From Phoronis australis (lineage: Eukaryota; Animalia; Phoronida), in contig NMRA01000237.1 in the NCBI GenBank assembly GCA_002633005.1, forward strand, positions 434,001 to 498,000: a stretch of 64,000 bases of DNA, given 5' to 3'. The notes under the pieces are model-generated. The model ran no database searches, was not told the origin of the DNA, and worked only from the letters and a program-made list of their open reading frames with translations. Positions 2,501 to 23,044 of this stretch are shown one piece after another. Position 1 is the first letter of the stretch. The number at the start of each line of letters is the position of its first letter. The position numbers and the translations under genes are program-made.

Positions 2501-23044
<20,544 letters not shown>

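What the first reader, a model, noticed from the sequence alone, without database searches (positions are those of the whole stretch)
19549..19569. Candidate 21-nt micro-exon that rewrites the MLCK calmodulin-binding helix (Trp anchor swapped for Phe)
Seen: the CaM-binding peptide is split by a phase-0 intron ([17 protein letters not shown], 19141-22477). Inside it lies ttttaactcttacag|GACGACGAGAAACCCTTCAGA|gtaagt, a frame-neutral exon with strong splice sites encoding DDEKPFR. Known: MLCK binds Ca/CaM through a 1-8-14 motif, here W-I-M, overlapping the autoinhibitory basic segment; Drosophila MLCK is reported to make differently regulated isoforms by splicing in this region. Inference: inclusion gives [24 protein letters not shown], where FR takes the register of WQ. 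The 1-8-14 motif is rebuilt as F-I-M while an acidic, proline-containing spacer separates it from the RRK cluster. This would be a splice switch tuning Ca/CaM affinity or autoinhibition. The register match argues against a chance splice-site pair.
Basis: partly seen in the sequence, partly recalled or inferred. Interest (0 to 1): 0.8.

Follow-up and report, generated by a model that had tools for sequence, protein, structure and literature searches.

The report
Splice switch cuts MLCK calmodulin site
RNA reads show that this invertebrate's myosin light chain kinase gene is spliced two ways, one of which cuts out most of the calmodulin-binding helix and likely frees the kinase from calcium control much as is recalled for fruit flies, while the proposed 21-base micro-exon was used by none of the reads seen.

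Summary
It has an 84-nt AG-free zone. But 0 of 31 RNA reads leaving the upstream donor use it (95% bound about 9%; tissues unknown), and 0 of 224 homologous junctions carry an in-frame insert.

The same reads reveal a different switch at this intron. Donor 19140 joins either acceptor 22478 (17 reads, intact W-I-M site) or an in-frame acceptor at 22673 (15 reads plus one contig). The second join deletes 65 residues, including [12 protein letters not shown], and keeps the autoinhibitory segment and the telokin Ig domain. Limpet, scallop and mussel proteins have the same kind of deletion; arthropods swap in a short end here. The short kinase is predicted to be calmodulin-insensitive, like the Drosophila isoform of Kojima 1996 (recalled; paper not held).

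The micro-exon remains possible as a rare, tissue-restricted third form (about 35%). The scan's notes held no earlier report of this splice.

Verdict: new variant of a known kind; interest 0.35.

The parts
14868..17014 (+). Four kinase-domain exons of the MLCK gene (14868-15068, 15433-15613, 16185-16345, 16862-17014)
   Evidence: GT-AG borders. Joined with the next exon they give one open frame of 272 aa with [20 protein letters not shown] and APE; tblastn map.
19020..19140 (+). Exon with the end of the kinase, the autoinhibitory basic segment and the first five residues of the CaM-binding helix (RRKWQ); its donor GTAGGT at 19141 serves all forms
   Evidence: Covered by reads in X2-X4 and by the X1 contig; reads join it to the exon ending 17014.
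19463..19548 (+). 84-nt AG-free zone and acceptor in front of the candidate micro-exon; no TGC within 60 nt and no CTAAY within 100 nt
19549..19569 (+). Candidate 21-nt micro-exon (DDEKPFR), donor GTAAGT at 19570; not seen spliced in
   Evidence: Best of 85 pairs; 0 of 31 junction reads; no joint listed.
19549..19623 (+). Other reading of the same acceptor: a short last exon of 22 codons, stop at 19615-19617, ATTAAA at 19618; not seen used
   Evidence: Arthropod homologues end with 12-42 residue tails at this junction.
22478..22672 (+). Alternatively spliced 195 nt (65 codons): [12 protein letters not shown], i.e. positions 3-14 of the 1-8-14 motif, plus linker. Present when acceptor 22477 is used, absent when acceptor 22672 is used
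   Evidence: Joint to 22478: X2 7, X3 7, X4 3 reads. Joint to 22673: X2 8, X3 7, X4 0 reads, plus the X1 contig. In frame. Its first 14 residues align to residues 6-19 or 7-20 of crystallised smMLCK CaM-binding peptides (E 0.05-0.6, short match).
22673..23044 (+). Common part of the last exon, starting VKKQKEK in the short form; holds the C-terminal telokin-type Ig domain (about 22742-23017)
   Evidence: read depth.

Best explanation
The gene is a smooth-muscle-type myosin light chain kinase whose donor after RRKWQ is spliced to either of two in-frame acceptors, and the downstream one removes 65 residues with most of the calmodulin-binding helix, which likely yields a kinase that no longer answers to Ca2+/calmodulin. 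Shown: both joins in RNA, their frame, what is lost (anchors 8 and 14) and what is kept (autoinhibitory segment, Trp anchor, telokin Ig). Inferred: the short form does not bind calmodulin productively. It most likely has calcium-independent, partly self-inhibited activity on myosin regulatory light chain (about 60:40 over being locked off). The ratio of forms is probably set by tissue or stage. The 21-nt unit is either a pseudo-exon or a rare, tissue-restricted extra form; it is not the main switch in the samples read.
For: Joints 19140->22478 (17 reads in 3 runs) and 19140->22673 (15 reads in 2 runs, plus the only form in the X1 contig), both GT..AG. The same reads seen as loose ends give 16 and 15. 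The deletion is 195 nt and in frame. In the short form positions 1/8/14 read W/E/S, and the hydrophobic moment falls from 0.63 to 0.26. The removed piece matches the C-terminal three quarters of the crystallised smMLCK CaM peptide. Shoemaker et al. 1990 (PMC2116294, abstract seen) place autoinhibition in chicken residues 1068-1080 and CaM recognition in 1082-1101; mapping these to the 13 residues before ARRKW and to the 20 from RRKWQ on is my recall. Both long and deleted forms, with identical downstream sequence, exist in Patella (39 aa), Pecten (45 aa) and two Mytilus species (39 aa); Pomacea matches only at the start of the short tail (about 56 aa). That is 5 of 12 pairs compared; the other 7 are short alternative ends. 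Haliotis and Owenia records show only a form without the second half. The short tails share no new hydrophobic motif, so loss of the site is the common feature. Recalled, not read: Kojima 1996 (Drosophila isoform III, made by splicing of the CaM-binding exon, is Ca/CaM-independent) and Ito 1991 (smMLCK cut at Trp800 binds no CaM and is constitutively but less active).
Against: No biochemical test was possible. The short junction keeps W1, a basic run (charge +5) and Tyr at position 10, so weak 1-10-type CaM binding is not excluded. The abstract of PMC2116294 says changes in the CaM segment do not lift autoinhibition, which would favour a locked-off kinase. Tissue control is not shown: X4's 3 long and 0 short against 13 and 15 in X2+X3 gives p = 0.23, and contigs drop minor forms. 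The homologue isoforms are mostly annotation models, not checked against reads here. Only 18-19% of each raw run was read.
Confidence: 0.7

Rival explanations
1. One reading: the 21-nt exon is a real cassette, included in a small cell population (for example neurons). It would rebuild the motif as F-I-M behind an acidic spacer and lower CaM affinity or loosen autoinhibition, as a third form beside the two seen.
For: Best of 85 pairs in the intron; 6 of 300 resampled introns match it. The 84-nt AG-free zone is a feature of eMIC-dependent neural exons (PMC8797185 passages). It is frame-preserving. Two unnamed spliced MLCK transcripts, L008 and L025, carry 20- and 59-nt inserts at exactly this junction. 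With F as anchor the helix stays amphipathic (moment 0.75), while the charge just before the anchor drops from +3 to -1. Neural micro-exons are diluted in bulk RNA (inference).
Against: 0 of 31 junction reads; zero depth in 3 of 4 runs; two overlapping X3 reads cross both sites unspliced. No UGC near the acceptor, no CUAAY, and the acceptor is not weak. 0 of 224 homologous junctions have an in-frame insert. The L008 and L025 inserts both add a stop rather than rebuild the motif. The register match has a 16-45% chance rate.
Confidence: 0.3
2. The acceptor at 19548 is real but opens a short last exon (22 codons, stop, ATTAAA). This would give a kinase that ends just after RRKWQ without the telokin Ig, as crustacean and fly MLCK models do.
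For: Open 22 codons with a polyA-like hexamer right after the stop; long AG-free zone; short alternative ends at this junction in Macrobrachium, two Penaeus, two drosophilids and Patiria.
Against: No read joins 19140 to 19549, and no depth downstream of 19590 in the fine lay. ATTAAA is common in this AT-rich intron (two copies).
Confidence: 0.1
3. The short form keeps full autoinhibition but cannot be released by calmodulin. It would be a locked-off or force- or phosphorylation-released kinase that still binds myosin through its telokin Ig.
For: The autoinhibitory segment lies wholly in the shared exon. The PMC2116294 abstract separates autoinhibition from CaM recognition. PMC5505704 (passages) reports force-induced release of the smMLCK regulatory segment without CaM.
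Against: The two closest precedents (Kojima 1996, Ito 1991; both recalled) found calcium-independent activity when the tail after RRKW was replaced or cut.
Confidence: 0.3
4. The 22673 acceptor is splicing noise or an allele-specific quirk without function.
For: Its acceptor score is low (1.1 against 6.9); no protein evidence.
Against: About half of the junction reads in two runs use it. It is in frame. It is the only form in the more diverged X1 contig, and equivalent in-frame deletions recur in molluscs.
Confidence: 0.07

Closest known systems
Drosophila Strn-Mlck / MLCK isoforms of Kojima et al. 1996 (Genes Cells 1:855; PMID 9077439; only its title seen, in reference lists; content recalled)
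   Same: One MLCK gene gives differently regulated isoforms by splicing at the CaM-binding domain. Drosophilid records switch sequence exactly after RRKWQ (P0353, P0155).
   Different: The fly alternative is a short new end (40-42 aa) with a stop. Here an internal alternative acceptor deletes 65 aa and keeps the C-terminal Ig domain.
Mollusc MLCK isoform models: Patella caerulea KAK6166183/4, Pecten maximus X5 XP_033728729, Mytilus galloprovincialis X5 XP_076087973, M. californianus X7 XP_052080810
   Same: In-frame loss of the second half of the CaM helix after RRKWQ, with the downstream sequence identical to the long form.
   Different: The deleted length is 39-45 aa against 65 aa here. They are annotation models, with no function described in the papers my searches returned.
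Vertebrate smooth-muscle/non-muscle MLCK (MYLK) and its RS20 CaM-binding peptide (PDB 5JQA, 1QS7, 1CDL)
   Same: Ig-FN3-kinase-autoinhibitory segment-1-8-14 CaM helix-telokin Ig order; the removed residues align with RS20 positions 6-19.
   Different: All vertebrate smooth-muscle-type (MYLK) records in my set keep the helix whole; no splice form cutting it was seen among them.
eMIC/SRRM234-dependent neural micro-exons (PMC8797185, passages seen)
   Same: Short, frame-preserving, long AG exclusion zone.
   Different: No UGC near the acceptor, no CUAAY branch point, the acceptor is not weak, and no inclusion was seen.

Membership tests
Smooth-muscle-type MLCK (MYLK orthologue group) | Ig and FN3 domains before the kinase | tested here: met
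   tblastn exons at about 3200, 8100, 9300 (Ig) and 10320, 11660 (FN3).
Smooth-muscle-type MLCK (MYLK orthologue group) | Intact catalytic motifs | tested here: met
   [23 protein letters not shown] in one open frame.
Smooth-muscle-type MLCK (MYLK orthologue group) | Autoinhibitory segment plus 1-8-14 CaM-binding helix | tested here: met
   W/I/M at 1/8/14 in the long form; match to RS20 peptides.
Smooth-muscle-type MLCK (MYLK orthologue group) | C-terminal telokin-type Ig | tested here: met
   22742-23017 matches the last Ig of P0012 at 40%.
Smooth-muscle-type MLCK (MYLK orthologue group) | Groups with bilaterian MLCKs in a tree | tested here: met
   Inside the bilaterian group, split from three cnidarian rows at 100/99; weakly next to molluscs (86/83). 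No twitchin, titin or DAPK outgroup was included.
Smooth-muscle-type MLCK (MYLK orthologue group) | Ca/CaM-dependent phosphorylation of regulatory light chain | not testable with these tools
   Needs an assay.
Drosophila-type CaM-site splice isoform (Kojima 1996) | Alternative splicing inside the CaM-binding domain | tested here: met
   Two joints from donor 19140.
Drosophila-type CaM-site splice isoform (Kojima 1996) | Replacement by a short alternative end | tested here: not met
   The short form is an internal deletion that keeps the Ig; it works like the fly switch but is built differently.
Drosophila-type CaM-site splice isoform (Kojima 1996) | Ca/CaM-independent activity of the spliced form | not testable with these tools
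   Predicted only (recalled literature).
eMIC-dependent neural micro-exon | Very short and frame-preserving | tested here: met
   21 nt, phase 0-0, no stop.
eMIC-dependent neural micro-exon | Inclusion in mRNA | tested here: not met
   0 of 31 junction reads in three runs of unknown tissue; absent from the X1 contig.
eMIC-dependent neural micro-exon | Long AG exclusion zone | tested here: met
   84 nt against 13-35 nt.
eMIC-dependent neural micro-exon | UGC near the acceptor, CUAAY branch point, weak acceptor | tested here: not met
   No TGC in 60 nt, no CTAAY in 100 nt, acceptor score 5.8.
eMIC-dependent neural micro-exon | Conservation in relatives | tested here: inconclusive
   No close relative's genome was reachable; 0 of 224 distant junctions have an in-frame insert; none like it in 9 distant genomic loci.
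eMIC-dependent neural micro-exon | Neuron-restricted inclusion | not testable with these tools
   The runs carry no tissue label.

The most novel reading that the evidence does not exclude
The ancient intron after RRKWQ is a three-position calcium dial in this gene: intact site, deleted site with the myosin-binding Ig kept, and a neuron-restricted micro-exon that rebuilds the site as F-I-M behind an acidic spacer. Across invertebrates the same intron has been used again and again, by different splice routes, to uncouple MLCK from calmodulin.
Probability: 0.3. Interest if true: 0.55.

Novelty: new variant of a known kind. Interest (0 to 1): 0.35.

Why it matters
MLCK is the textbook calcium switch for myosin II. 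If the short form is calcium-independent, many invertebrates with a single MLCK gene get both a calcium-gated and an ungated kinase from one splice choice, which bears on tone and catch-type contraction and on non-muscle contractility. The fly case has been known since 1996, so the principle is not new. What is added is read evidence for an Ig-retaining version and the finding that molluscs, and probably an annelid, do the same at the same intron. My ten paper searches (open-access library only) returned no paper describing this outside Drosophila. It gives a direct two-construct kinase test.

Tried and rejected
No whole genome is held for this window, so no paralogue or relative search was possible. 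A homologue search with the last exon gave 11 hits, all Ig-domain proteins or contactins; one with the 40-aa regulatory exon gave 1 protein. The run search listed no holder on record as RNA; X1 holds 0.28 of the words and its RNA status is a guess, and X2-X4 were added by species label. The first tree used wrong exon borders and covered only part of the kinase; it was redone. Neither tree fixes the phylum.

The metagenome scan gave 29 loci, none closer than 59% on the exon, so micro-exon conservation could not be tested. In the 9 genomic loci with an intron at this codon, the two best-scoring small AG..GT pairs of each did not resemble DDEKPFR. Kojima 1996 is not held, and the body of PMC2116294 is not held (abstract and references only). 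Passages of PMC6535026, PMC8893254, PMC2132636, PMC3114093, PMC11081514, PMC2674065 and PMC5167519 said nothing on splicing of the CaM site. No supplements were read.

No structure or complex prediction was run: no calmodulin sequence was on hand, and such a model would follow the solved peptide complexes. The register match was rejected as evidence (chance 16-45%). Intronic read depth at 19790-19815, 21560-21610 and 22160-22325 comes from dispersed repeats (under 90% alike) and was ignored.

Full report
Observation. The window holds the 3' part of a myosin light chain kinase gene on the + strand: Ig and FN3 exons, five kinase exons, and a last exon with a telokin-type Ig. With corrected borders the kinase exons give one open frame with all catalytic motifs, and the tree places it among bilaterian MLCKs, weakly beside molluscs (86/83). 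The candidate at 19549-19569 is there, reads DDEKPFR, and is the best of 85 open in-frame AG..GT pairs in the intron under a generic matrix. 6 of 300 resampled introns reach its score, and the gene-free strand has 1 such pair in 64 kb. Its acceptor has an 84-nt AG-free zone, against 13-35 nt at 7 used acceptors; 2 of 57 and 3 of 57 look-alike sites on the two strands reach this. It lacks UGC and CUAAY, which PMC8797185 (passages) lists together with long AG-free zones for neural micro-exons. The F-for-W register is weak evidence, since 16% of random codons there are aromatic and 45% are large hydrophobic.

RNA test. Four public runs were listed and all four were laid: one Logan contig set (X1, RNA by guess) and three raw RNA-seq runs, each read to 18-19%. 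The raw reads on the regulatory exon are mostly 99% or more alike (25 of 29 in X2, 34 of 36 in X3, 1 of 3 in X4). The wide lay listed two GT..AG joints from donor 19140: to 22478 (7, 7 and 3 reads) and to 22673 (8, 7 and 0 reads, and the X1 contig). It listed no joint touching the candidate and no 21-letter insert (rows need 3 reads). The second lay used 21-nt bins with one bin on the candidate. Depth there was 0 in X1, X2 and X4, and 2 in X3, the same as both flanks, from two fully overlapping reads (apparently one unspliced fragment) at about 19457-19585. The loose ends after the donor were 16 of the long type and 15 of the short type, each group in full agreement. These are the same reads as, not a second sample. 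0 of 31 bounds pooled inclusion below about 9%. The tissues are unknown, so a neuron-restricted exon could hide under that bound. The argument also assumes that the tool lays a 21-24 nt piece; it listed joints with 20-nt sides.

What is really there. The acceptor at 22672 lies 195 nt inside the last exon, in frame. Using it deletes 65 residues starting with [12 protein letters not shown], so RRKWQ runs into VKKQKEK. The removed start aligns to residues 6-19 of crystallised smMLCK CaM peptides. Positions 1/8/14 change from W/I/M to W/E/S, and the hydrophobic moment drops from 0.63 to 0.26. The autoinhibitory segment and the telokin Ig stay. X1, which is more diverged (3 differences in 30 nt upstream), shows only this short form; X2 and X3 show about half of each; X4 shows 3 long and 0 short (p = 0.23 against X2+X3).

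Relatives. The intron after RRKWQ is old: 9 of 29 metagenome loci have GT right after this codon. Among 394 proteins gathered, 224 kinase-adjacent junctions were found. 181 fit the intact pattern and 43 did not, many of these being merely diverged second halves. None has an in-frame insert before the second half. Of 12 long/short pairs compared, 4 are exact internal deletions (Patella 39 aa, Pecten 45 aa, two Mytilus 39 aa), Pomacea matches only at the start of the short tail, and 7 are short alternative ends (Patiria, Macrobrachium, two Penaeus, two drosophilids, Saccostrea). The Haliotis and Owenia records lack the second half. Two unnamed spliced transcripts, L008 and L025, carry 20- and 59-nt inserts at the junction that add a stop; the L008 insert ends in AG and could be an alternative acceptor. 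So small inserts do occur at this site elsewhere, but those seen truncate the protein rather than rebuild the motif. Most of these isoforms are annotation models that I did not check against reads.

Mechanism. Shown: two splice products, and what each keeps. Inferred: the short form loses productive CaM binding. The abstract of PMC2116294 separates an autoinhibitory stretch from the 20-residue CaM-recognition stretch; by my recalled mapping the splice removes 15 of those 20 residues. Whether the result is on or off is open. From memory, Drosophila isoform III (Kojima 1996; only the title was seen) is Ca/CaM-independent, and smMLCK cut at Trp800 (Ito 1991; recalled) binds no CaM and is active at a reduced rate. 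I therefore favour calcium-independent, partly damped activity about 60:40 over a locked-off kinase released by force or phosphorylation (PMC5505704 passages). A residual weak 1-10 mode (W1, Y10, basic run) is not excluded.

The micro-exon. I give it about 35-40% of being real in some form (30% cassette, 10% last exon). The sequence signals and the hot-spot location speak for it; the reads, the missing UGC and branch signals, and the absence of any such insert in homologues speak against it. If included it would keep an amphipathic F-I-M helix but flip the charge in front of the anchor from +3 to -1, so it would be predicted to weaken CaM binding.

Novelty. Splicing at the MLCK CaM site is known from Drosophila. 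The internal, Ig-retaining deletion and its recurrence in molluscs were not found in ten searches of the open-access library (listings and starts of abstracts seen, with passages of ten papers read as cited). Subscription papers are largely missing from that library. The scan's own notes gave one loosely related item on a lizard SPEG start with an intron at the same codon and nothing near this place. Verdict: new variant of a known kind, interest 0.35.

Noticed in passing
window 23027-23030: The X1 contig (1188 nt) leaves the window sequence at about 23030 with 368 nt unplaced, at a possible phase-1 donor just before the stop codon, while X2-X4 reads continue past it. The MLCK may have a second, spliced C-terminus.
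   Followed up: partly
window 36865-64000: A second + strand gene or continuation with many Ig domains, an acidic linker exon (45200-45886) and a PH-like stretch (57926-58400); best hits include hemichordate obscurin-like and MLCK proteins. It looks obscurin/UNC-89-like and lies head to tail behind the MLCK; whether the two are joined in one transcript is untested.
   Followed up: partly
window 36115-36135: Another 21-nt AG..GT unit (FSRNKAG) scoring higher (11.6) than the finding's candidate, about 750 nt before an Ig exon; it may be a small real exon or a chance pair.
   Followed up: no
window 17716-18724 and 58688-63789: Near-identical duplicated blocks on either side of the two single N (18220, 61336): 504 nt at 98%, and 1850 nt at 96% plus 607 nt at 98.5%. 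Possibly two haplotypes joined at scaffold gaps, so the doubled Ig exons near 59-64 kb may be an assembly artefact.
   Followed up: partly
window 17650-18950: AAC-rich degenerate tandem repeat in the intron before the regulatory exon.
   Followed up: no
L008:2372-2391 and L025:1467-1525: Spliced animal MLCK transcripts with 20- and 59-nt stop-adding inserts exactly after RR(K/R)WQ. The L025 insert reads like an alternative basic-hydrophobic second half of the helix.
   Followed up: partly
window 19116: A>G difference in 4 of 24, 5 of 22 and 1 of 3 reads of X2, X3 and X4 inside the autoinhibitory segment; allele or editing cannot be told without DNA.
   Followed up: no
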